From Candidatus Latescibacterota bacterium (GTDB lineage: Bacteria; Latescibacterota; UBA2968): 64,000 nucleotides of DNA. The position numbers and the translations under genes were made by a program. This document shows, piece by piece, positions 2,755-44,047 of this stretch; positions within the stretch are counted from its first letter, which is position 1; each line of letters starts with the position of its first letter. The notes beneath the pieces are model-generated. The model was not told where the DNA came from. It saw nothing but the letters and a program-made list of their open reading frames with translations, and ran no database searches. The stretch is from assembly GCA_965204745.1 (NCBI GenBank), contig OZ242010.1, forward strand, positions 3,659,767-3,723,766, in the 5' to 3' direction.

Positions 2755-3531
2755 ATGTCCATTACCGATGCACAAAAACGCCAATTTGTCGAGGAAGGGT
2801 ATCTCAAAATCTCGGGGGCTGTGCCCAAGCACATGATCGAAACGGCGCGGCGCGCGGTCAATTATTCCATTGGCAATGTGGGCCTTGGCGGTGAAGACCT
2901 CGCAAATCACCGCTCGGGATTCTTTTGCGCCGAACTGTTGGACGCGCCGTTCATCATCGACATGTACAACGAGACGCCGGTGATGGAGATCGCCGAAGCC
3001 CTGATGGGCAAGGGCAATGTCCTGCCGGTTGCACGCGCCAAAACCTATCCGCGCTTCCCCATGCCACTCGGCGCAGAACCCTCGCCGCCGCGGGGCCATA
3101 TTGACGGCATTGGCAACGGCACCAATGGCACGGCCAAGGGCGATTACAAGCGCGGATTCACGGCGTTTGCCGTCGTCTATCTCGTGGATGTGCCCGAACC
3201 GTTCAGCGGCAATTTCACGGTTTGGCCCAAGTCCCATCGCTTTTTTGCGGACTATTTCAAAACGCACGGTCACGAAGTGCTCGCCCAAGGCATGCCTCGC
3301 CCCGATCTGCCCGAAGACCCGGTGATGATCACCGGCAACGCGGGCGATTTCATTCTCGCGCATCATCAGGTCGTTCACGGCTCGTGTCCCAACGCCTCGC
3401 CCAACGTGCGCTTGGCGACCATCTCTCGCCTCAAGCACAAAGATGCCGATCAAATCGGCAAGGATGCGTACACAGAGATATGGCGCGAATGGCCCGGTCT
3501 TCACGACGTGCTCAATGGAAAATCCGAGTGA
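2755..3531 (+). CDS. PhyH family Fe(II)/2OG oxygenase, paralogue 2
   Basis: aggag RBS. PRGHIDG and HHQVVHGSCPN motifs. Collinear similarity to paralogue 1. Confidence 0.8.
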   Translation: MSITDAQKRQFVEEGYLKISGAVPKHMIETARRAVNYSIGNVGLGGEDLANHRSGFFCAELLDAPFIIDMYNETPVMEIAEALMGKGNVLPVARAKTYPRFPMPLGAEPSPPRGHIDGIGNGTNGTAKGDYKRGFTAFAVVYLVDVPEPFSGNFTVWPKSHRFFADYFKTHGHEVLAQGMPRPDLPEDPVMITGNAGDFILAHHQVVHGSCPNASPNVRLATISRLKHKDADQIGKDAYTEIWREWPGLHDVLNGKSE

Positions 3532-23147: not shown

Positions 23148-23360
23148 TTGATTACCGTCCATTTACCTTCTGAAATCGAGCAACGCATTGCGGACCTCGC
23201 CGCTCGAACTGGCCGTACCGAGACATTCTACATTGAGGAAGCCATCATGGAATACTTGGATGAACTGGAAGATAAATACTTGGCATTAAATCGCTTGGAG
23301 AATCCCACCAAACGCTGGACATTGGATGAAATGGAGCAAGGCATTGACAGTTGCGTTTGA
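23148..23360 (+). CDS. RelB/DinJ-family ribbon-helix-helix antitoxin-like protein
   Basis: TTG start with AAAGGAG RBS. N-terminal RHH (ITVHLPSEIEQRIADLAARTG) and a C-terminus RLENPTKRWTLDEME similar to RelB RLRNPKPVRVTLDEL. No RelE-like gene follows; instead it overlaps the methyltransferase gene by 35 bp. Confidence 0.6.
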   Translation: MITVHLPSEIEQRIADLAARTGRTETFYIEEAIMEYLDELEDKYLALNRLENPTKRWTLDEMEQGIDSCV

Positions 23361-24471
23361 CAACCGCGCTGTGCCGCCCACAGAGGGGATCAAGTATGCG
23401 GGGTCTAAGTTGAAGCTCCTTCCGCATATCTTGCAACTGGCCGCAAAGGTCGGGGCGAAGACGGTGTTGGATGGGTTCTCGGGGACGACAAGGGTGTCGC
23501 AGGCACTCGCCAGATCGGGGTATGCGGTCGTCTGCAACGATATTGCCGCGTGGTCTGAAATTTTTGGGATGTGCTATTTGCTCAATCAAAAGAAGCGGTC
23601 GGATTACCAACCGCTCATCGATCACCTCAATGCCGTGCGGCCCGTGGATGGATGGTTCACGCAACACTATGGCGGATATCCCAACGAGGGTTGCGCGATT
23701 CAGCGCGATGGGCGCAAGCGGCCATGGCAGATTCACAACACCCGAAAGCTGGATGCGATTCGGGAGGAGATCGAGGCCCTCGCGCTCGATCCCGTCGATA
23801 AGGCCGTGGCACTGACGAGCCTAATTTTGGCACTCGACCGCGTGGATAGTAGCCTCGGGCACTTTGTCTCGTATCTCAAAGACTGGTCCCCGCGCTCCTA
23901 CAAAAAACTCGAACTCAAAGTGCCATCTGTCTTTCCGTCCTCTGGGGAACATCGCGTGTTCCGAAAGGACATTTTTGACCTCGCGCCGCGCATCGACACG
24001 GACTTGGCGTATTTCGATCCGCCGTATGGATCGAACAATGAGAAAATGCCGCCATCGCGCGTGCGCTATGCGTCTTATTACCACGTCTGGACGAGCGTCA
24101 TTCTCTACGATAAACCCGCCCTTTTCGGCAGGGCCAATCGCCGCGTTGATACGTCTGACCCGGTGGCGGCATCCGCGTTTGAGGAGTTCAGACGCAACGC
24201 AAATGGTCGCTTCATCGCGGTCGAAGCCATTGAGAAACTCATCGCTACGACGCGAGCGCGCCATGTCATCTTGTCGTACAGTTCTGGAGGCAGGGCAACA
24301 GCCAAAGCGTTGAACGACGCGATGCAATGTCACGGCAGGCTTTTGGATGTGGTCGCGATCAATTATCAGAAAAACGTGATGGCGGGCATGACGTGGACGC
24401 ACGAATGGCTACGAGAGGTCGATCACCCAAACCGAGAGTTCTTGTTCTTGCTCGAAAAGCAACGTGCTTGA
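23326..24471 (+). CDS. Dam-like (D12 class, alpha-group) N6-adenine DNA methyltransferase, orphan
   Basis: IKYAGSK (SAM-binding region, cf. Dam FLKWAGGKY), FSGTT, and the DPPY catalytic motif (AYFDPPYG). Start either ATG 23326, overlapping relB, or GTG 23369. Confidence 0.8.
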   Translation: MKWSKALTVAFDNRAVPPTEGIKYAGSKLKLLPHILQLAAKVGAKTVLDGFSGTTRVSQALARSGYAVVCNDIAAWSEIFGMCYLLNQKKRSDYQPLIDHLNAVRPVDGWFTQHYGGYPNEGCAIQRDGRKRPWQIHNTRKLDAIREEIEALALDPVDKAVALTSLILALDRVDSSLGHFVSYLKDWSPRSYKKLELKVPSVFPSSGEHRVFRKDIFDLAPRIDTDLAYFDPPYGSNNEKMPPSRVRYASYYHVWTSVILYDKPALFGRANRRVDTSDPVAASAFEEFRRNANGRFIAVEAIEKLIATTRARHVILSYSSGGRATAKALNDAMQCHGRLLDVVAINYQKNVMAGMTWTHEWLREVDHPNREFLFLLEKQRA

Positions 24472-24765: not shown

Positions 24766-25746
24766 ATGATTGAACGATACTCAAACGCCATTATTCAAGG
24801 CGATTGTTTAGAATTGCTAAAAACAATGCCCGATAACTCGGTAGATGTCGCGTTTGCGGACCCACCCTTTAACCTCAAAAAATCCTACAATAGCTACAAA
24901 GATCGCCGAAAACTCCGAGAATATTTGGACTGGTGCGAACTTTGGATAACCGAAATGGTTCGCATTGCCAAACCAACGGGCAGTATTTTTGTCCACAACA
25001 TACCGAAATGGCTCACATTTTATACGGCGTATCTGAATAAAATTGCCGATTTCAAGCACTGGATAAGTTGGGACGCGCCGACCGCACCAATGGGAAAAAC
25101 CCTGCAACCCTCGCATTATGGGATTTTATTTTACGCCAAAGACATCGAACAATTGAAATTTTATGAAATTCGTTATCCGCACAAACGCACGCGAAAAGAA
25201 GGGCTATTGGCAAAAGATTACGGCGGCAAAAAAAGACTCTTACACCCATTCGGCCCTCTCGTGTCCGATGTGTGGACGGATATTCACAGGGTCAAGCACA
25301 ATAAATACAGAGACAAACACCCCTGCCAGTTGCCCATACATTTATTGGAACGCATCATTTTAATGTCCTCAGATGAGGGCGATATCATTCTCGATCCCTT
25401 TAGTGGCACGGGCACAACGGCGTTGGCTGCCAAGCGTTTGGGCAGAAATTTCATCGGTTTTGAATTGGACGACAAATACGTTGAAATAACGCAAAATAAA
25501 CTTTTGCAAGAGAAGATGAGCTCGAAATTGGGTCGCTGTTGGGTCAGTTTTTATCTGGATAAATTGGTCACCTTAAGAGACGAAGATTGGAATGACATAA
25601 AAGAATTTTTCCACATTCCATCTCAAATTGAAAAGATAGATCTCATGCCGATTGTCTTAAAATCAAACGCGGCGAGTTCCATATCTTCCGAAAAAAATGG
25701 GAATAATCGCAAAGACGCGCTCCAAGAAGAACTCACATTGTCTTAG
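24766..25746 (+). CDS. Beta-class DNA methyltransferase (N4-cytosine or N6-adenine), low-GC, orphan
   Basis: DPPF catalytic motif (FADPPFN) precedes the FSGTGTT SAM motif, which is the beta-class order. Markedly AT-rich relative to the flanks. C-terminal ~70-aa extension of unknown function. Confidence 0.8.
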   Translation: MIERYSNAIIQGDCLELLKTMPDNSVDVAFADPPFNLKKSYNSYKDRRKLREYLDWCELWITEMVRIAKPTGSIFVHNIPKWLTFYTAYLNKIADFKHWISWDAPTAPMGKTLQPSHYGILFYAKDIEQLKFYEIRYPHKRTRKEGLLAKDYGGKKRLLHPFGPLVSDVWTDIHRVKHNKYRDKHPCQLPIHLLERIILMSSDEGDIILDPFSGTGTTALAAKRLGRNFIGFELDDKYVEITQNKLLQEKMSSKLGRCWVSFYLDKLVTLRDEDWNDIKEFFHIPSQIEKIDLMPIVLKSNAASSISSEKNGNNRKDALQEELTLS

Positions 25747-30054: not shown

Positions 30055-30134
30055 TGACCACTGACCGCTTGGGGTGCTGGGTAGCCCTCTTACGTCTTCC
30101 CTCTCCCGTCTCACTTGCGGAAGGGCGGTGCGGG

Positions 30135-30173
30135 GACTGACTACTGACTACTGACTACTGACTACTGACTACT
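30135..30173. repeat. (CTGACTA)x5 heptamer array
   Basis: gggactgactactgactactgactactgactactgactacttgg. Confidence 0.9.
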
Positions 30174-30403
30174 TGGGGTGCTAGGCGGTCCTCTTGTATC
30201 TTTGGGCGAGCACGGGGGCATCGCCCCTACATATATATCGCTCACCTTTGAACTGGCTATCGCCAGTTGTACACCGCTCGTGCCTTCTGTGCCTTTTGTG
30301 GCTAAAATCCCGTCTTCCCTCTCCCGTCTCACTTGCGGAAGGGCGGCGCGGGGACTGACAACTGACAACTGACAACTGACAACTGACAACTGACAACTGA
30401 CAA

Positions 30404-34951: not shown

Positions 34952-36159
34952 AAAAATTACCCATACTCCTGCTTTGCCTCTGCATTCAGGCGTCCGCAGA
35001 GCGAGCCGGTCGAGAATTGCCCGCACGCCATAAAATCGGCATCATCGCCCCGTTGGGCACGCCACACGGCGAAGCCCTACGCAACGGCATTTTGATCGCC
35101 CGCGACCACACCCCCCTCGCAGAACCGGTCGGCTTGGTATTTGAAGACTCTGAAGGCGATCCCATTCGCGCAGTGCGCGCCGCGCAACGCCTCGTTGAAG
35201 ACCGCGAGGTCATCGCGATCATCGGCGCGCTCACCAGCGCGGAAACCACGCCTATCGCGGCCCTGCTCGGCGTGCAAGAAATGCCCTTGGTGGCCCCAAC
35301 CGCGTCAGACGACGGCATTGCCTCGCTCAGCCCGTACATTTTTCAAGTCAACGCCACCCCCGGCGCGCAGGGCCGCCGCATCGCAGAACACGCTGTACGC
35401 GAACAGGGCTTGCGAACACTGGCAACCCTCGCGTCTCGAGATGGGTATGGCAGGCGCATCGCCCGCGAATTTACGACCAAAGCCGAGGATCTCGGCGCCG
35501 AGGTCCTCATCCAAGAATGGTACGAGCCGGGCACGACGGACTATCGCCGCCAATTCGAGCGCATTCGCAGCATGGGCTTGGCACTGCGTCCGCCCGCTGA
35601 CCTCGCTTCGGAAATTGACGCTTTGATCCTCGGCGATTTGTACGTCGCACCGCCCCTGGTCGAGGTCGATCCGGATACGGCCCAAGCCGACGTGGTCGAG
35701 ACCTTAGACGGCATTCTCATCGCGGGCGATGATGCGGACATCTTGCTCATCGCCCCGCAATTTCACTCCGCACTGGTCGCTTCCCAAGTGCTCGGCAGCG
35801 ATGGTTGGAACCACGCCGAAGTCGCGCGAGATGGCGGCACTTACGTGGAGGGCGCGGTTTTTGTCGGCAAATACTACGAACAAAGTCCCCTCGAATCCGT
35901 GCAATTTTTCGTCAACGCGTACCGCTCGCGCTTTGGCACGGACCAAAATATCGTCTCGGCCCTCGGGCACGACGCCATGCTGTCAATCCTGCACGGCATC
36001 AACGCAGGCGGCACCACCCGCGCCCTCCTGCGCGACCGCCTCGAAACCCTGACCGACCTCCCCGGCGCAACCGGCAAAATCTCCTTTGCCCCAGGCAATC
36101 GAGAAAATGGCTGGCTACACATGCTCACCATCCGGAAGGGGAAAATAGAACTGTATTGA
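34948..36159 (+). CDS. ABC transporter substrate-binding protein (type I periplasmic-binding fold, Liv-like)
   Basis: Signal peptide MKKLPILLLCLCIQASA. Periplasmic-binding-protein architecture. Confidence 0.6.
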   Translation: MKKLPILLLCLCIQASAERAGRELPARHKIGIIAPLGTPHGEALRNGILIARDHTPLAEPVGLVFEDSEGDPIRAVRAAQRLVEDREVIAIIGALTSAETTPIAALLGVQEMPLVAPTASDDGIASLSPYIFQVNATPGAQGRRIAEHAVREQGLRTLATLASRDGYGRRIAREFTTKAEDLGAEVLIQEWYEPGTTDYRRQFERIRSMGLALRPPADLASEIDALILGDLYVAPPLVEVDPDTAQADVVETLDGILIAGDDADILLIAPQFHSALVASQVLGSDGWNHAEVARDGGTYVEGAVFVGKYYEQSPLESVQFFVNAYRSRFGTDQNIVSALGHDAMLSILHGINAGGTTRALLRDRLETLTDLPGATGKISFAPGNRENGWLHMLTIRKGKIELY

Positions 36160-36227
36160 GGCGAAAGAGGCGAGAATAGAAGGGCGCGGCCCCGTGTGGT
36201 CATCACCCATAACATCGAGGAGAGGCA

Positions 36228-36578
36228 ATGATCAATTTTTACACATGGAGCAGATGAAGCACCTGTCGCAAGGTGAAAGCGTGGCTTTCGCGAGAAGGTG
36301 TGGAGGTGGTGGAGCGGGACTTTTTTCGGGATGGATTTACAGAGTCAGAGCTTCGAGCTTTGCTCGGGGACATGCCGCCGGGCGACGTCTTCTCGTGGCG
36401 CAGTCCGTCTGCGCGTGCGCTGAACCTCGACCGCGATGCGGTGTCCGCAGATGAACTGATTCGCCTGATGGTGGAACAACCTCGCCTGATCCGCCGGCCC
36501 TTGATCCGCGCAGGCGGGCGCCTGATGGTGGGCACGGACAAGGCGGCGATGGCAGAGGTCTTTCCCGGTTTCGCGTGA
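36228..36578 (+). CDS. ArsC/Spx/YffB-family thioredoxin-fold protein with an in-frame UGA (candidate selenocysteine) at the catalytic Cys position
   Basis: AGGAGAGG RBS then ATG 36228. MINFYTWSR-[TGA]-STCRKVKAWLSREGVEVVERDFF... aligns with Spx [20 protein letters not shown], giving a U-x-x-C motif. Same frame as the track ORF 36273..36578. A hairpin UCGC-AAGGU-GAAAGC-GUG-GCUUUC-GCGA starts 9 nt after the UGA. Confidence 0.6.
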
Positions 36579-36605
36579 TGCGCTTGCAAAAAAAGGATTT
36601 TGCCG

Positions 36606-38303
36606 ATGAATTTCACCGCCAACAACAACACGTTTCGCCAGTTGATGGGCAATGGCCTGAGTTATCGCGTGCCGCAATTTCAACGCGATTATTCCTGGGG
36701 CCCGGACGAATGGGACGATCTGTGGCAAGACATGGTCGGGCTGTTTGGCGAAGACCCGGAACCCGCGCATTACATGGGCTACTTGGTGTTGCAATCGTCC
36801 GACAACCGGGCGTTCGACATCATCGACGGACAGCAACGCATGACAACGCTGAGCTTGTTGATGCTGGCGGCAGTGGCGCATCTGAAAGACTTGGCAGTGC
36901 CGAATGACCCCAATGATCCGCAACACCGACGCGCAGAACAACTGCGAAACAATTACATCGGGTACCTCGATCCGGTGACGCTGGTGCCGCGCTCCAAGTT
37001 GACGCTGAACCGGCACAACGACCGCTTTTACCAGAATTACCTCGTGCCCCTTGAGCACCTGCCGCAAAGGGGGCTGAATGCTTCGGAACGCCTATTGCGA
37101 AGGGCGTTTCAGTGGTTTGGGGAACGCATCGTGGCATACGCGGGAAATGATGGCGAAGCGGTGGCGCGCTTTGTCGATAGCGCCGTTGATAAGTTGTTTT
37201 TTACGGTGATCACGGTGACGGACGAGTTGAATGCGTTCAAGGTCTTCGAGACCCTGAATGCGCGGGGCGTGCGCCTGTCTGCCACCGATTTGTTGAAAAA
37301 CTACCTGTTTTCCATGGTCTCGAGGGACGGCGTACACGAATCGGAAATCGAGGCATTAGAAGAACGCTGGGAGAGCATCGTCGGGCTGTTGGGCAGTGAG
37401 CGTTTTCCCGAGTTTTTGCGCGTCTATTGGAACAGCCACAATAGGTTGGTCCGCAAGGCCGATTTGTTCAAAACCATCCGCAATGCGATCCGCGACAAGT
37501 CCCAAGCCTTTGCCTTGATCCGCGCGATGGACCGGCATGCACGGGTGTACGCGGCATTGCGAAACCCAGAAGACGATTCGTGGACAGCCGCAGAGCGCGA
37601 CAGCCTATCCCAGTTGCTTATGTTCGACGTGCGCCAGCCCTTGGCCTTATTGCTGGCGGCCTTTGATCGATTCGCCGAAGACGACAGGGCCGGCCTCGGG
37701 CGTTTTCTTCGGGCTATTGCCGTGGTGTCTTTCCGCTACAACGCGATCTGCGGTTACCCGAGCAACGAGCAAGAGACGATGTACAACCGCATCGCACGCA
37801 ACATATCAACGGGCCAGATCGCCAATGCGACCGCCGCCATTGCGGAACTGAGGCCGGTTTATCCCGATGACGCAAAATTTAAGGCCGCGTTCGCCGACAA
37901 GGTGTTGCGAACCACCAGCAGTCGCGACAAAAAGGTGGCGCGCTTCATCCTGTTCCGACTCGAGGAGCAGTTGTCCGGCAATCGCTTTGATATTGAGAGC
38001 GCGAAATACAACATCGAGCATGTGTTGCCAGAAAGCCCCGGCAACGGCTGGGACCAATTCGACGATCAGCAACGCGATGCGTTCACCCATCGTTTGGGCA
38101 ACCTGACGCTTTTGGCAACAGCGGATAATCGCACCTTGGGAAATACCTCCTTTTTAGAAAAGCGTCCCATTTACCAAAAAAGCCAATTTGCCATCACGCG
38201 CAAATTGGCTGAAAATTTCGATGCCTGGACCGCAGAAAAAATTCGTTCACACCAGACCTGGATGGGCAAACAAGCCACGGCCATCTGGCGCGTCAATTTC
38301 TGA
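36606..38303 (+). CDS. GmrSD-family type IV (modification-dependent) restriction endonuclease, DUF262 + DUF1524
   Basis: N-terminal ParB/Srx-like DUF262 with IDGQQR. C-terminal His-Me finger (DUF1524: EHVLPES...W...HRLGNLTLL...NR.LGN). Confidence 0.75.
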   Translation: MNFTANNNTFRQLMGNGLSYRVPQFQRDYSWGPDEWDDLWQDMVGLFGEDPEPAHYMGYLVLQSSDNRAFDIIDGQQRMTTLSLLMLAAVAHLKDLAVPNDPNDPQHRRAEQLRNNYIGYLDPVTLVPRSKLTLNRHNDRFYQNYLVPLEHLPQRGLNASERLLRRAFQWFGERIVAYAGNDGEAVARFVDSAVDKLFFTVITVTDELNAFKVFETLNARGVRLSATDLLKNYLFSMVSRDGVHESEIEALEERWESIVGLLGSERFPEFLRVYWNSHNRLVRKADLFKTIRNAIRDKSQAFALIRAMDRHARVYAALRNPEDDSWTAAERDSLSQLLMFDVRQPLALLLAAFDRFAEDDRAGLGRFLRAIAVVSFRYNAICGYPSNEQETMYNRIARNISTGQIANATAAIAELRPVYPDDAKFKAAFADKVLRTTSSRDKKVARFILFRLEEQLSGNRFDIESAKYNIEHVLPESPGNGWDQFDDQQRDAFTHRLGNLTLLATADNRTLGNTSFLEKRPIYQKSQFAITRKLAENFDAWTAEKIRSHQTWMGKQATAIWRVNF

Positions 38304-38396
38304 TAGGGAAGTGATGTCTAGCCAAACCGAGTTGTCAACGTTTGAGCCGCTGGTATTCCCGACGCGCTTCCATCAGGGAAGGCGGCACAGATCCTC

Positions 38397-38420
38397 AAAT
38401 TACCGAGCACTCGGTAATTT
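38397..38420. promoter_or_regulatory. Perfect 10-bp-arm palindrome aattaccgag-cact-ctcggtaatt upstream of the 38450 gene
   Basis: Sits between the gmrSD stop and the next start. Operator-like symmetry, or a hairpin. Confidence 0.3.
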
Positions 38421-38449
38421 GAATCACTCACTTTTCATGGAGGTGTATC

Positions 38450-39094
38450 ATGTTTCGCATCTTGCTTTTAATTTTCAAGGAGATTTTTGGTAAGCCAGCC
38501 CCTCGCGCCCACAAGGCAAGGCAACCTGAAAAGGAACACAAAGATCGGGGTGAATCGTATGATGAGTTGCTAAAAAAAGCAACAGCACTGAAGCGGCAGG
38601 GGGATATTGATGGGGCTTTGGCCCAGATCGACAAGGCGATCTCCGTGGCCTCTGTGGGCGACCGTGGGCGACCACAGGCCCAAAAAAAGCGCATCTACTA
38701 CCTCCTTTTGTCAAAAAGACAAGAGGAGGCACTGAAAACTGCAGGACAGATTATCGCGGAAGCCCCCAACGAAGCCCAAAGCAGAGCTCTTGTTGGGACA
38801 TGTTATTTTTTTGGTTATGAGCAACGGGCGCGCGTACTGTTTTCAATGAAAAAGTTTGTCGAGTCGTTTTTGGATCATGTCCGTGCTGTCTGGCACTGGC
38901 AGGATGCAATGTCGATTCAGGGCAGAACATCGGACGAGCATACACCAGAAAAAGCGGCTGAAACCTTGCGTCAGGAGGCTATGAGATGCAAAATTTCCAT
39001 TCATGATCCTGATGTTTTCATGGGGGCGGCAATGGATGGCCTTGACGATCCAGATCCCGAATTGATGGTAGACAGATTCCGTCCACTCTTGTAA
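38450..39094 (+). CDS. Hypothetical protein, possibly TPR-like, in a low-GC islet
   Basis: 214-aa ORF in AT-rich DNA. Lys/Ala-rich helical repeats (LKKATALKRQGDIDGALAQIDKAI). Confidence 0.45.
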   Translation: MFRILLLIFKEIFGKPAPRAHKARQPEKEHKDRGESYDELLKKATALKRQGDIDGALAQIDKAISVASVGDRGRPQAQKKRIYYLLLSKRQEEALKTAGQIIAEAPNEAQSRALVGTCYFFGYEQRARVLFSMKKFVESFLDHVRAVWHWQDAMSIQGRTSDEHTPEKAAETLRQEAMRCKISIHDPDVFMGAAMDGLDDPDPELMVDRFRPLL

Positions 39095-39200
39095 AACCAA
39101 TCCCTGGTCTCTAGGAGGTGATCGAATCCGCGATAGCGCAGGAATCGACGCACGAAACAGTCCGTCTGACTATCCTCGCAGAGAAGGACGATACTCACGC

Positions 39201-40304
39201 TCATTCGTCCCACCCCCTGGCAATAGATTCGGAGAGCGACAGCCCGTCAACGGCGCGTTTTGGTTCGTCGCTGACACGCACGGGGCCGTCGTCTTGCCGG
39301 GAGAACCACTTGCCGTTGGCACCTGCCATATAATCGATTAAAACCGGGTGATGAGAGACGATGGCGATCTGTTCCAACGATTCTCCACAGCACGCAACCG
39401 CCGCCGCAACCCAAGGCTGAATTTCCGTTAGGGCAAGATAGTTCTCAGGCTCGTCAATAAACAGGGAAACCCGACGGTCTTTTGGGATAAAAATCAGACT
39501 GTACAATGCGATCAGGGTTTTCTGACCGTCGGAAAGTTGGTCGAATCCATATCTGACCAGATCGCTGGATGGGCTGCGAAATACCGCCTTGAGGGCGCGC
39601 GTGTTCTCTCCGGATTTCATCAGGTTGATCGAATCGAATCCGGGAAGGGCTTTGCCGAGTTCGCGGAACAGCGTGACGATTGAACCCATGTTTTCCTGAG
39701 AGGCGTGCCCGTACCATCCGACAAAATTCTGCATCAAAGGCGCCAAAAACTCATCTTCTGTTTTGGTTTCCAACGCGAAGAGCGGGGGGCAGGGGCTAAC
39801 GATGATGCAGTTGGCAATTTCCCTTTTGAATCGGGTCAATTTTCGGTTGTCGTGCCGCTCGTTCAAGACGCCGATTCCGGACTGCGCCCAGTCAAATGGA
39901 TACAAAGGGCCCTGCGTATAATCATCGTGATACAACTGGGCTTGGCCCTTGTGGAAAACAAACAGCGGTTTTCCGTCATGATCGAGTCTCTCGTTGCCAA
40001 TTCGCATTTGGTTGCGTGCGAGGTCGTGTTCAACTGTCAGCGCGTAACAATAGGCGTGCCCATCGATCTGCATTTCGATTTCGAATCGCTGTTCGTCGCT
40101 GTTTTCTCTCAAGGAGAGATCGCGTGCGGGAAACACCTCGTCAACTTTCAATCCGCGCACGACCAGATCCTGAATTTTCCTCAGCACACTCAAGACCGAT
40201 GTCTTACCCGTGCCATTGGCACCGAGGAAGATGTTTATCTCGCCGAGTTTGAGTTCGAAATTGGTCAAACATCGAAAATTATCGGCATAGAATCTCTGAA
40301 TCAT
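39201..40304 (-). CDS. AAA_21/AAA_15-type ABC-like ATPase (defence-associated family)
   Basis: Walker A GANGTGKTS, ABC-signature-like LSDGQKT, Walker B LFIDEPE, H-loop VSHHP. Confidence 0.7.
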   Translation of the reverse strand: MIQRFYADNFRCLTNFELKLGEINIFLGANGTGKTSVLSVLRKIQDLVVRGLKVDEVFPARDLSLRENSDEQRFEIEMQIDGHAYCYALTVEHDLARNQMRIGNERLDHDGKPLFVFHKGQAQLYHDDYTQGPLYPFDWAQSGIGVLNERHDNRKLTRFKREIANCIIVSPCPPLFALETKTEDEFLAPLMQNFVGWYGHASQENMGSIVTLFRELGKALPGFDSINLMKSGENTRALKAVFRSPSSDLVRYGFDQLSDGQKTLIALYSLIFIPKDRRVSLFIDEPENYLALTEIQPWVAAAVACCGESLEQIAIVSHHPVLIDYMAGANGKWFSRQDDGPVRVSDEPKRAVDGLSLSESIARGWDE

Positions 40305-41414: not shown

Positions 41415-41569
41415 GACATCCTCCCAAAAAAATTGCAGACGATTTCTCAAACGCGGCTCAATCTAATGCGTGGCGTTTTTGCGAACAAGCAAAAAACCAT
41501 CCCGTCTGCGGAATACCTTGACATTTGGGAAAAAGGGGCTATACATGAAGAGGCCGCCCTGCCCCGCCC

Positions 41570-41810
41570 AACTCCTCCAACCCCAAGTAGTCAGTAGTCA
41601 GTTGTCAGTCCCCGCACCGCCCTTCCGCAAGTGAGACGTGAGACGCAAGAGGGCCACCCGGCACCCCAAGTGGTCAGTGGTTAGCCCCCGCCCAACTCCT
41701 CCAACCCCAAGTAGTCAGTAGTCAGTAGTCAGTCCCCGCACCGCCCTTCCGCAAGTGAGACGTGAGACGCAAGACGGGAGAGGGCCACCCAGCACCCCAA
41801 GCACTCAGTG
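41570..41810. repeat. Tandem duplication of a ~120-bp composite unit ((CAGTAGT)n + ccccgcaccgcccttccgcaagtgagacgtgagacgcaaga...gagggccacc.agcaccccaag)
   Basis: Two adjacent copies, a third at 42600-42730, and reverse-orientation copies at 30062-30135 and 30311-30354. Confidence 0.7.
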
Positions 41811-41875
41811 GTCAGCAAAACAAGCGGTGGATAGTGAGGGTCGAAAGCTGATGGTTGTCTTTCAAAGGAATCCCC

Positions 41876-42565: not shown

Positions 42566-42858
42566 AAGACACGACAAGGAGTGCGAATGGGCAAACCCTG
42601 CCCAACCGCTGCGCCCAAGTAGTCAGTAGTCAGTGGTCAGTGGTCAGTGGTCAGTCCCCGCACCGCCCTTCCGCAAGTGAGACGTGAGACGCAAGACAGG
42701 AGAGGCCCGCCCAGCACCCCAAGCGGTCAGCGGTCAGTGGTCAGCCCACCCCGCCGCCCTGTCTCATTAGTCGTAGGGAGTTGCCTCTCAAGGCCGTTCA
42801 ACGGTCAGTTGTCACCCCGTTCTCTTTCATCTTTCAACCGATCTCTTTGGAGTCCATC

Positions 42859-43735: not shown

Positions 43736-44047
43736 ATGGAAACCTACATCATCTCTTACGATATGGCTTGGGGAGGTGATTACAATGCCCTCCATGAGGC
43801 CATTCAAAGCTACGGGGCTTGGGCGCGTATTACCGATTCAACATGGGCTGTGTTGACCGAATATAGTGCTCAAATGATTCGCGATCACTTGAGCGAATAT
43901 CTCCCCGATGGGAGCCGTCTTTTCGTTGTCAGGTCCGGCGATGAAGCGGCGTGGCAATACGTCAATAGCTCTGAGTGGCTGGAAGGTATCCTGTTGCAAG
44001 ATGTAACTCGCCTGAACAAATTGCACTTACTTTCGCAACTCGATTAG
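43736..44047 (+). CDS. Hypothetical small protein (103 aa)
   Basis: AAGGAGA RBS. METYIISYDMAWGGDYNALHEAIQSYGAWARITDSTW... No family recognised. Confidence 0.4.
   Translation: METYIISYDMAWGGDYNALHEAIQSYGAWARITDSTWAVLTEYSAQMIRDHLSEYLPDGSRLFVVRSGDEAAWQYVNSSEWLEGILLQDVTRLNKLHLLSQLD

What the first reader, a model, noticed from the sequence alone, without database searches (positions are those of the whole stretch)
36228..40304. Low-GC defence-like islet: selenoprotein-GmrSD pair, TPR-like protein and a solitary AAA_21 ABC-type ATPase
36606..38303 encodes a DUF262 (IDGQQR) + DUF1524 (His-Me finger) protein, the GmrSD architecture of modification-dependent type IV restriction enzymes. It is followed by an operator-like perfect palindrome (38397-38420) and an AT-rich 214-aa helical-repeat protein. 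Convergent to these is a 367-aa AAA_21/AAA_15 ATPase (GANGTGKT, LSDGQKT, LFIDEPE, VSHHP), a family usually paired with a nuclease partner (PARIS, Septu, OLD-like and similar). No intact partner is present. Short minus-strand ORF fragments just downstream of the ATPase (39213..38750, including a ...IVLLCEDSQTD... stretch) could be a decayed partner, or antisense noise. The compositional shift suggests horizontal acquisition.
Basis: partly seen in the sequence, partly recalled or inferred. Interest (0 to 1): 0.55.

Follow-up and report, generated by a model that had tools for sequence, protein, structure and literature searches.

The report
Defence ATPase whose nuclease partner was overwritten
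The "lonely" ATPase lost its partner: a small nuclease gene normally sits just downstream, and in this strain its middle was replaced by an unrelated helical-repeat gene, next to an intact restriction enzyme of a known family.

Summary

- **The normal state.** In 79 of 80 related genomes the 367-aa ABC-type ATPase is followed directly by a 175-180-aa protein. That protein has a Toprim nuclease fold with invariant E10, D72xD74 and PRRNIETW.
- **What happened here.** Only codons 1-29 (39204..39118, minus strand) and 160-176 (38388..38338) of that gene survive. The 389 bp between them were replaced by a 728-bp, low-GC segment (38389-39116).
- **What the segment carries.** It holds a 28-bp palindrome and the 214-aa ORF. 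The ORF is a genuine, purifying-selected, TPR-fold orphan gene seen elsewhere mostly beside mobile-element or defence genes.
- **Population context.** Near-identical strains carry either the intact or the replaced allele, and SNP patterns show recombination between them.
- **The neighbours.** The GmrSD protein is a full-length HEC-06 member (753 bits), a family with published anti-phage activity. The upstream ArsC/Spx-like gene has a conserved in-frame TGA at the CxxC cysteine and is probably a selenoprotein. Its pairing with GmrSD is only adjacency.
- **Composition.** Only the insert and the ATPase are low in GC.

Verdict: a known kind of ATPase plus Toprim defence module from an unannotated clade, inactivated here. 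Moderate interest.

The parts
36228..36578 (+). ArsC/Spx-family gene with an in-frame TGA (36255-36257) at the first position of the CxxC motif; a probable UxxC selenoprotein of 116 aa
   Evidence: Pfam ArsC 52 bits. With U replaced by C, TIGR01617 scores 74.9 bits against a cut-off of 75.05. The U aligns with Cys10 of B. subtilis Spx, PDB 7f75/3gfk. The TGA and the upstream frame are kept in four strains with two different N-termini.
36273..36291 (+). Hairpin with an 8-bp stem and a GUG loop, starting 15 nt after the UGA; a candidate bacterial SECIS element
   Evidence: MFE -20.6 kcal/mol, z -1.75. The sequence is identical in the four strains, so covariation cannot be tested.
36606..38303 (+). 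GmrSD-type (DUF262 + DUF1524) type IV restriction enzyme of the HEC-06 family; intact
   Evidence: PADLOC HEC-06, E 5.7e-227, 753 bits, residues 2-564 against model positions 6-567 of 569. Pfam GmrSD_N and GmrSD_C. DGQQR and EHVLP motifs present.
38335..38388 (-). 3' remnant of the Toprim partner gene (codons 160-176, VPPSLMEARREYQRLKR, plus stop)
   Evidence: tblastn 16/17 identical to the L001 partner. DNA alignment with L001. Profile hit to HMM positions 156-176.
38389..39116 (.). 728-bp foreign segment (GC 0.488) that replaces 389 bp (codons 30-159) of the partner gene
   Evidence: Alignments with the intact-allele loci L001 and L011. The same segment and junctions occur in the independent contig L010. 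GC.
38395..38422 (.). Palindrome with 13-nt arms and a CA spacer, containing CAAATT-N14-AATTTG; lies 27 nt upstream of the TPR start codon and 6 nt inside the left junction
   Evidence: The same motif with a different but still complementary inner part lies upstream of the L007 homolog. Folds as a 12-bp hairpin, z -3.6.
38450..39094 (+). 214-aa orphan TPR-fold protein gene
39118..39204 (-). 5' remnant of the Toprim partner gene (codons 1-29, MSVSIVLLCEDSQTDCFVRRFLRYRGFDH); its ATG overlaps the ATPase stop codon (ATGA)
   Evidence: 29/29 identical to the L001 partner. Profile hit to HMM positions 1-29, i-E 3.4e-13.
39201..40304 (-). 367-aa ABC-type (AAA_15/AAA_21) ATPase with Walker A, signature, Walker B and H-loop intact
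   Evidence: 97% identical to P0001, whose locus has an intact partner.

Best explanation
The interval holds two independent defence-type units and one insertion.

**1. GmrSD (36606-38303).** This is an intact HEC-06-type GmrSD enzyme. By family, it is an NTP-dependent DUF262 domain coupled to a His-Me/HNH DUF1524 nuclease that cuts modified phage DNA.

**2. The ATPase and its lost partner.** The ATPase at 39201-40304 is the first gene of a conserved two-gene operon. The second gene, translationally coupled through an ATGA overlap, encodes a 176-aa Toprim nuclease-like protein. By analogy with OLD, Gabija, PARIS, AbiL, MADS3-4 and HEC-01, the ABC ATPase is the sensor or motor and the Toprim protein is the effector.

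**3. The insertion.** In this strain a 389-bp stretch of the effector gene was replaced by a 728-bp foreign segment. The deleted stretch encoded the DxD metal site and the PRRNIETW motif. The module is therefore predicted to be dead as a nuclease system, leaving an orphan but still intact ATPase.

The inserted segment is a compact cassette: a palindrome, a ribosome-binding site and a TPR-fold gene of unknown role. That gene family is rare and turns up beside IS fragments, in a defence or mobile-element island, and in a prophage-like lysogeny module.

**Shown:** the anatomy, the homology, the folds, the replacement and its junctions, and the allele polymorphism. **Inferred:** the defence function, the division of labour between ATPase and Toprim, and loss of function.
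For: **The partner exists and is obligate**
- Loci L001, L002, L003 and L011 each have a 175-176-aa gene overlapping the ATPase stop by 4 bp.
- 79 of 80 GTDB loci have the ATPase immediately upstream of the partner.

**The partner is a Toprim protein**
- Invariant E10, D72-A-D74 and P108/R110/N111/E113/W115.
- AF2 pLDDT 93.5.
- 29 of 34 members weakly hit HEC-01B, 15 of 34 hit DUF4276 and 12 of 34 hit Mad4.
- DUF4276 is described as a Toprim member in PMC12065111.

**The replacement**
- Flanks are 98.4-98.9% identical to L001 and L011, with breakpoints at 38388/38389 and 39116/39117.
- Only profile positions 1-29 and 156-176 are detectable in any of the six frames.
- The same allele is present in the independent contig L010.
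- Incompatible SNP bipartitions among the four strains show that the alleles recombine in a population.

**The TPR gene is real:**

**GmrSD is HEC-06:**. Published anti-phage activity, with DGQQR and E/H-motif mutants losing it, is in bioRxiv 10.1101/2024.01.29.577857.

**ABC ATPase plus Toprim systems as a class:** PMC11464382.
Against: - No member of this exact ATPase/Toprim clade has been tested.
- Its nearest named relative, HEC-01, gave no protection in the published assay.
- Matches to PADLOC models are weak: ATPase 59-66 bits, partner E 1e-6 to 1e-2.
- The ATPase here shows no decay. Its nonsynonymous/synonymous ratio is equally high between two intact-allele strains, so loss of function of the module cannot be read from the ATPase.
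- The right junction is covered by only about 10 bp in L010.
- The mechanism of the replacement is unknown: no terminal inverted repeats, target-site duplication or recombinase were found.
Confidence: 0.75

Rival explanations
1. The partner decayed in place through frameshifts and point mutations. On this reading the minus-strand ORF fragments at 39213..38750 are its remains and the 214-aa plus-strand ORF is a chance ORF.
For: Several short minus-strand ORFs lie downstream of the ATPase. The first one begins with genuine partner sequence.
Against: - No frame of 38389-39116 matches partner residues 30-155, by tblastn or by profile search.
- DNA identity to L001 drops from about 99% to noise exactly at the two breakpoints.
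- The plus-strand ORF has homologs at 54-80% identity in unrelated contexts, with dN/dS 0.13-0.25 and a confident TPR fold.
Confidence: 0.02
2. The ATPase is still functional here. It could work alone, with the neighbouring GmrSD (DUF262 proteins are among known AAA_15/21 partners), or with the newly arrived TPR protein as a replacement partner or regulator.
For: - The ATPase ORF and all its NTPase motifs are intact.
- The replaced allele persists and recombines in the population.
- TPR homologs occur in defence and mobile-element contexts.
Against: - GmrSD and the TPR gene are both convergent to the ATPase, so they are not co-transcribed with it.
- The ATPase pair occurs without GmrSD in L002 and in all 80 GTDB loci, and never with a TPR homolog.
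- HEC-06 works as a single gene in the published assay.
Confidence: 0.1
3. The ATPase/176-aa pair is not an immune system. It could instead be a housekeeping repair module or a toxin-antitoxin-like addiction module, in which case the insertion simply removes a costly gene.
For: - HEC-01 showed no defence.
- The effector gene is disrupted repeatedly in other MAGs by a MITE, an IS3-like element and a truncation. That pattern is expected for a costly or toxic gene.
- The pair is syntenic next to a Gfo/Idh/MocA gene in relatives at 80% identity.
Against: - Housekeeping assignments fail: RecF TIGR00611 scores 32 bits against a cut-off of 172, and MADS3 scores 51 against 420.
- The distribution is patchy across at least eight phyla at 50-70% identity, which is typical of horizontally moving accessory genes.
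- All best matches are defence-system models.
Confidence: 0.13

Closest known systems
HEC-06 (GmrSD-like single-gene defence; Payne et al., bioRxiv 10.1101/2024.01.29.577857)
   Same: Full-length match of 36606-38303 to the HEC-06 model (753 bits, 2-564 against 6-567 of 569). DUF262 domain with DGQQR, and DUF1524 domain with the E-H nuclease motif.
   Different: Not embedded in an Hma system here. Substrate and modification specificity are unknown.
HEC-01 (ABC ATPase HEC-01A plus Toprim HEC-01B) and the related MADS Mad3/Mad4, AbiL and PDC-M25/M38 pairs
   Same: A two-gene ABC (AAA_15/21) ATPase followed by a small Toprim-fold protein with a conserved Glu and DxD. These are the best PADLOC hits for both proteins.
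   Different: - Scores are far below family level: ATPase 59-66 bits; partner 14-24 bits for the three sequences scored individually, with a best E of 1.7e-6 across 34 members.
- The partner is shorter (176 aa against models of 197-219) and falls below the Pfam DUF4276 threshold (13-15 bits against 30.2).
- In the window the partner is destroyed.
OLD-family nucleases, Gabija GajA and PARIS AriA/AriB
   Different: - OLD and GajA are single fused polypeptides.
- AriB is about 300 aa with DUF4435; the partner does not hit DUF4435.
- AriA models match only the ends of the ATPase, at about 50 bits.
Spx / ArsC-family thioredoxin-fold proteins and ArsC-family selenoproteins (NCBIfam NF041106)
   Same: The 116-aa protein aligns end to end with Spx (58 bits), with U at the Cys10 position of CxxC.
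   Different: Scores 32 bits against a cut-off of 85 for NF041106, and 74.9 against 75.05 for TIGR01617. It is therefore not a member of the curated selenoprotein subfamily. RNA-polymerase binding is unknown.
TPR-domain proteins (LGN, Rap phosphatases, kinesin light chain)
   Different: No Pfam TPR model reaches its threshold. There is no HTH or enzymatic domain. The family has only about 28 representatives at E<=1e-3 among 1.84 billion proteins.

Membership tests
GmrSD / HEC-06 | N-terminal DUF262 (GmrSD_N) with the DGQQR NTPase motif | tested here: met
   PF03235 123 bits. IIDGQQRMT is in the translation.
GmrSD / HEC-06 | C-terminal DUF1524 (GmrSD_C) with the (D/E)H...P His-Me motif | tested here: met
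   PF07510 109 bits. NIEHVLPES. The motif is described.
GmrSD / HEC-06 | Full-length match to the HEC-06 profile | tested here: met
   PDLC04154, E 5.7e-227, 753 bits, 2-564 against 6-567 of 569.
GmrSD / HEC-06 | Modification-dependent cleavage or phage protection | not testable with these tools
   Needs an experiment.
ABC ATPase + Toprim two-gene systems (HEC-01-like / split OLD-like) | ABC-type ATPase with Walker A, signature, Walker B and H-loop | tested here: met
   GANGTGKT, LSDGQKT, LFIDEPE and VSHHP. AAA_15, AAA_21 and SMC_N hits.
ABC ATPase + Toprim two-gene systems (HEC-01-like / split OLD-like) | Adjacent, co-oriented Toprim-fold partner with a conserved Glu and DxD | tested here: not met
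   Met in relatives. In the window only codons 1-29 and 160-176 remain, and the DxD is deleted.
HEC-01 (PADLOC models) | Family-level HMM scores for both A and B proteins | tested here: inconclusive
   HEC-01A 59 bits, E 1e-16. HEC-01B best E 1.7e-6, hit by 29 of 34 members. This is consistent with a distant sister clade, not with membership.
PARIS (AriA/AriB) | AriB-type DUF4435 Toprim partner of about 300 aa | tested here: not met
Septu (PtuA/PtuB) | HNH nuclease partner PtuB | tested here: not met
   The partner has a Toprim fold, not HNH. PtuA hits the ATPase only over its N-terminal P-loop region.
Pfam DUF4276 | Score above the gathering threshold of 30.2 bits | tested here: not met
   13-15 bits in the individually scored members. 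15 of 34 members hit at E<=0.1, best E 5e-4.
RecF/SbcC housekeeping ATPases | Equivalog-level match | tested here: not met
   TIGR00611 scores 32 bits against a cut-off of 172, over the N-terminal 38 residues only.
Bacterial selenoprotein (ArsC/Spx fold) | In-frame UGA aligned with a redox Cys of homologs, with a conserved reading frame on both sides | tested here: met
Bacterial selenoprotein (ArsC/Spx fold) | SECIS hairpin just downstream of the UGA | tested here: inconclusive
   A hairpin starts 15 nt after the UGA, but z is only -1.75, no covariation is available and there is no Rfam hit.
Bacterial selenoprotein (ArsC/Spx fold) | selA/selB/selD and tRNA-Sec present in the genome | not tested
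   No tRNA gene in the window. The rest of the genome was not available.
Transposable element / integron cassette (for the 728-bp insert) | Terminal inverted repeats, target-site duplication, a transposase or integrase, or an attC site | tested here: not met
   No terminal inverted repeats or target-site duplication at the junctions, and the only ORF is the TPR gene. The 28-bp palindrome is too short for attC and lacks the attC core (own knowledge).
TPR repeat proteins | Pfam TPR model above threshold / TPR solenoid fold | tested here: inconclusive

The most novel reading that the evidence does not exclude
The palindrome-plus-TPR gene unit is a minimal mobile cassette. Its cis-element, CAAATT-N14-AATTTG, keeps its outer hexamers while its inner arms co-vary. 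On this reading the cassette inserts into, and is retained in, defence loci because it silences a costly Toprim effector. That would make it either a natural effector knock-out or anti-defence element, or a moron-type gene shuttled by serine recombinases. Separately, the ATPase/mini-Toprim pair would be an undescribed defence family spreading across at least eight phyla.
Probability: 0.1. Interest if true: 0.7.

Novelty: new variant of a known kind. Interest (0 to 1): 0.4.

Why it matters
- **A caution for annotation.** An apparently "solitary" AAA_15/21 ATPase, which annotation pipelines would report as an orphan or incomplete system, can be the visible half of a recently broken two-gene module. 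Comparison with a near-identical strain resolves it to the base pair.
- **An unannotated clade.** The work defines a well-conserved clade: a 367-aa ABC ATPase with a 176-aa mini-Toprim, at least 192 partner clusters, 149 confirmed loci in GTDB genomes. Current Pfam and PADLOC thresholds miss the partner.
- **Where it lives.** The clade is shared at 50-70% identity by MAGs of Acidobacteriota, Latescibacterota, Gemmatimonadota, Gammaproteobacteria, Alphaproteobacteria, Spirochaetia, Cyanobacteria and others. Many of the MAG names suggest marine-sponge microbiomes. That is my inference from isolate names and is not verified.
- **Turnover of the effector.** Its repeated disruption (here, plus a MITE, an IS3-like element and a truncation elsewhere) and the coexistence of intact and dead alleles give a tractable natural example of gain and loss of a defence effector.

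Tried and rejected
- **Profile searches of the minus-strand fragments.** Pfam, PADLOC and NCBIfam gave nothing for 39004-39213, 38846-39100 and 38754-38945. They became interpretable only through the neighbours of ATPase homologs.
- **Looking for the TPR gene elsewhere.** Nothing in IMG/VR, in GTDB representative genomes, in INPHARED phages or in PLSDB plasmids. No PHROG hit. BFVD gave only generic TPR matches with E above 0.007. The partner has no hit in plasmids.
- **Sequence search of the partner against PDB.** Nothing meaningful. Only the fold search was informative.
- **Other searches that gave nothing.**
  - Rfam on the whole window: no family, so no annotated SECIS or riboswitch.
  - Promoter and terminator scan of 38200-39300: no sites.
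  - AFDB50 fold library: unavailable.
- **Relaxed selection on the orphaned ATPase.** Rejected. The nonsynonymous/synonymous counts are equally high between two intact-allele strains.
- **IS, MITE, IS200/IS605-type or integron-cassette origin of the insert.** No terminal inverted repeats, no target-site duplication, no second hairpin and no attC core. Only GATC microhomology at the left junction (read by eye).
- **Palindromes near distant TPR homologs next to serine recombinases.** None found.
- **A failed first pattern search.** My first palindrome pattern used the wrong spacer length (N16) and found nothing. Corrected.

Full report
**1. Checking the observation**

All listed ORFs exist at the stated coordinates.
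- The 565-aa protein at 36606-38303 hits Pfam GmrSD_N (123 bits) and GmrSD_C (109 bits).
- The 367-aa minus-strand protein at 39201-40304 hits AAA_15 and AAA_21 and carries the four quoted motifs.
- The palindrome is real but is not a perfect 24-mer. It consists of two 13-nt arms (38395-38407 and 38410-38422), fully complementary, around a CA spacer. It is unique in the window, with 0.00 expected by chance.
- Composition: the window averages 0.569 GC. The segment 38389-39116 is 0.488 (3rd percentile of 500-bp windows; the TPR gene's GC3 is 0.50). The ATPase is 0.521 (10th percentile). GmrSD (0.556, GC3 0.70) and the ArsC-like gene (0.604) are host-like. The "low-GC islet" is therefore only the insert plus the ATPase.

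**2. The ATPase is not naturally solitary**

The ATPase belongs to a large, well-conserved family. The search returned 956 hits at E<=1e-3, and the 120 best listed are 61-97% identical. In each of the four loci inspected (L001, L002, L003, L011) it is followed, with a 4-bp ATGA overlap, by a 175-176-aa gene with no precomputed Pfam domain.

A scan of GTDB representative genomes with the partner profile confirmed 149 loci and returned the best 80. In 79 of those 80 the ATPase lies immediately upstream; the exception starts at a contig edge.

The hosts are MAGs of Acidobacteriota (Ca. Versatilivorator, Vicinamibacterales), Latescibacterota, Gemmatimonadota (Longimicrobiales), Gamma- and Alphaproteobacteria, Spirochaetia, Cyanobacteria and others. 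Identities are typically 50-68%. Many isolate names look like marine-sponge MAG series. That is my inference and is not verified.

**3. What the partner is**

- An alignment of 34 members has invariant E10 and D11 (in LLCED), D72-A-D74, and P108/R110/N111/E113/W115 within a PRRNIETW block.
- AlphaFold2 gives pLDDT 93.5 with a beta-alpha-beta core.
- At the sequence level, 29 of 34 members weakly match PADLOC HEC-01B, 12 of 34 match Mad4, 15 of 34 match Pfam DUF4276 and 11 of 34 match DUF3226. All are below family thresholds.
- DUF4276 and RloB were recently described as Toprim-superfamily members with the Glu and DxD catalytic residues (PMC12065111).
- ABC ATPase plus Toprim is the shared logic of OLD, Gabija, PARIS, AbiL and MADS3-4 (PMC11464382) and of HEC-01 (bioRxiv 10.1101/2024.01.29.577857).
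- The ATPase's best PADLOC hits are PDC-M25A (66 bits) and HEC-01A (59 bits). RecF and MADS3 equivalogs fail by a wide margin.

The pair is therefore a distant, currently unannotated clade of the split ABC-ATPase/Toprim class.

**4. What happened in the window**

- tblastn with the L001 partner finds residues 1-29 at 39204..39118 (29/29 identical) and residues 160-176 at 38388..38338 (16/17 identical). Nothing lies in between.
- A profile search of all six frames of 38300-39260 agrees: only HMM positions 1-29 and 156-176 are found.
- DNA alignment with L001 places the breakpoints at 39117|39116 and 38388|38389. Flanks are 98.4-98.9% identical to L001 and L011 over kilobases.
- So 389 bp (codons 30-159, including the DxD and PRRNIETW) were replaced by 728 bp. 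The net change is 339 bp, a multiple of three, which I take to be coincidence.
- I found no terminal inverted repeats, no target-site duplication and no recombinase gene. There is only GATC microhomology at the left junction (read by eye). The mechanism is unexplained.

**5. The inserted gene**

- The 214-aa ORF fills most of the insert and has a GGAGG ribosome-binding site.
- It has homologs at 80, 72, 71 and 55% identity. dN/dS is 0.13-0.25.
- The AF2 model has pLDDT 83.9: nine helices after a disordered 35-residue N-terminus.
- The family is tiny: 28 representatives at E<=1e-3 among 1.84 billion proteins.
- It is absent from IMG/VR, GTDB representatives, INPHARED, PLSDB and PHROGs.
- Its contexts differ:

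| Locus | Context |
|---|---|
| L004 | Beside IS fragments |
| L005 | Between purA and an unknown gene |
| L007 | In a defence or mobile-element island (HNH-methyltransferase, GmrSD_C, AbiC, BglII) |
| L008 | Cut by a TnpB element |
| L094-L096 (distant 185-aa homolog) | Between a CI-like repressor and a large serine recombinase |

- The function is unknown. It is a protein-interaction scaffold by fold.

**6. The palindrome**

The motif CAAATT-N14-AATTTG occurs once in the window, once in L010 (the same allele) and once in L007, 110 nt upstream of the 54%-identical homolog. It occurs nowhere else in the 96 fetched loci.

The outer hexamers are conserved. The inner arms differ (ACCGAG/CTCGGT against GGACAA/TTGTCC) but stay complementary. 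This points to a hairpin or a symmetric binding site that travels with the gene. As RNA it folds into a 12-bp hairpin, z -3.6. Its role is untested.

**7. Population context**

- Contig L010, from another metagenome of the same project as L001, carries ArsC, GmrSD and the TPR gene with the same left junction. It reaches about 10 bp past the right junction. Its TPR gene has an 87-bp in-frame duplication.
- L001 and the 5.28-Mb genome L011 carry the intact partner.
- Across 36237-38388 all three possible SNP bipartitions of the four strains occur (14, 4 and 4 sites). The sites shared by the two TPR-allele strains cluster near the insert. So the alleles recombine within one population and the replaced allele is not a one-off artefact.
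- As a rough proxy for allele frequency, the 90%-identity clusters hold 17 partner sequences against 2 TPR sequences.
- Other MAGs have independently broken partners: a 260-bp MITE (L073), an IS3-like element (L085), and truncations beside a methyltransferase gene (L057, L060).
- The ATPase shows a high nonsynonymous/synonymous ratio in all strain pairs, including between two intact-allele strains. No lineage-specific decay can be claimed.

**8. GmrSD and the ArsC-like gene**

GmrSD matches PADLOC HEC-06 over its full length (753 bits). HEC-06 protected E. coli, and its DGQQR and E/H-motif mutants lost activity. Both motifs are present here.

The ArsC-like ORF reads MINFYTWSR-U-STCRK.
- With U replaced by C it aligns end to end with Spx, with U at Cys10 of the CxxC motif.
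- TIGR01617 rises from 52 to 74.9 bits.
- The TGA and the upstream frame are conserved in four strains that have two different N-termini.
- An 8-bp hairpin starts 15 nt after the UGA.

This supports a UxxC selenoprotein. The Sec machinery was not checked.

The GmrSD/ArsC adjacency is seen only in this species. It is absent from the close relative L002 and from the 80 ATPase/partner loci, which were not chosen as GmrSD loci.

**9. Verdict**

This is a known kind of system, ABC ATPase plus Toprim effector, from an undescribed clade. Here it is inactivated by replacement of the effector's core with an orphan TPR gene cassette, and it sits next to an intact HEC-06 GmrSD. Interest is moderate. The anatomy is settled. 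The defence role of the pair, the role of the TPR protein and its palindrome, and the replacement mechanism remain inferences or open questions.

Noticed in passing
window 41562-41685, 41686-41816, 42632-42737, 30055-30159 (-), 30308-30377 (-): An intergenic repeat family of about 105-130 bp. It has AGTAGTCAGT-type short repeats and a conserved core, CCCCGCACCGCCCTTCCGCAAGTGAGACGTGAGACGCAAGA. Two copies lie in tandem upstream of the SRAP gene. Copies are also present in L011.
   Followed up: partly
window 23326-24471 (+) and 24766-25746 (+): Two DNA methyltransferase genes: a D12-class N6-adenine type and an N6_N4 type. The second lies in the lowest-GC stretch of the window (GC 0.42-0.46). This may be a restriction-modification island or orphan methyltransferases, and is relevant to a genome that also carries a modification-dependent GmrSD.
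   Followed up: partly
L073 4153-4413; L085 4316-5720; L057 and L060 about 4405: Independent disruptions of the same Toprim partner gene in other MAGs. One is a 260-bp MITE with terminal inverted repeats (ACTAGTGTCGTGTCACACGCGT...). One is an IS3-like element of about 1.4 kb. Two are truncations at residue 135 beside a convergent methyltransferase gene.
   Followed up: partly
L010 2348-3079: The TPR gene of the second replaced-allele contig carries an 87-bp in-frame tandem duplication (residues 11-39). This fits the predicted disordered, length-variable N-terminus.
   Followed up: no
window 36157-36237 versus L011 (reverse complement) 2837-3372: Strain L011 has an extra 535 bp, with a 67-aa ORF, between the periplasmic-binding-protein gene and the ArsC-like gene. 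L011 and L010 also have a different ArsC N-terminus (MATIDFYTWNR-U). This is a second indel hotspot 2 kb from the insert.
   Followed up: no
L004 6700-6740: Directly downstream of the TPR homolog in L004, the same ribosome-binding-site and start context (GGAGGTGTATCATG) is repeated in front of another small ORF.
   Followed up: no
window 43736-44047 (+): A 103-aa ORF in another low-GC patch (GC about 0.50) with no Pfam hit.
   Followed up: no
window 39201-40304 versus L001 and L011: The ATPase has about as many nonsynonymous as synonymous differences between strains that are 98-99% identical (9-12 against 6-10). The neighbouring Gfo/Idh/MocA gene has 1-2 against 5-12. This suggests diversifying or relaxed selection on the ATPase, whichever partner allele is present.
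   Followed up: partly
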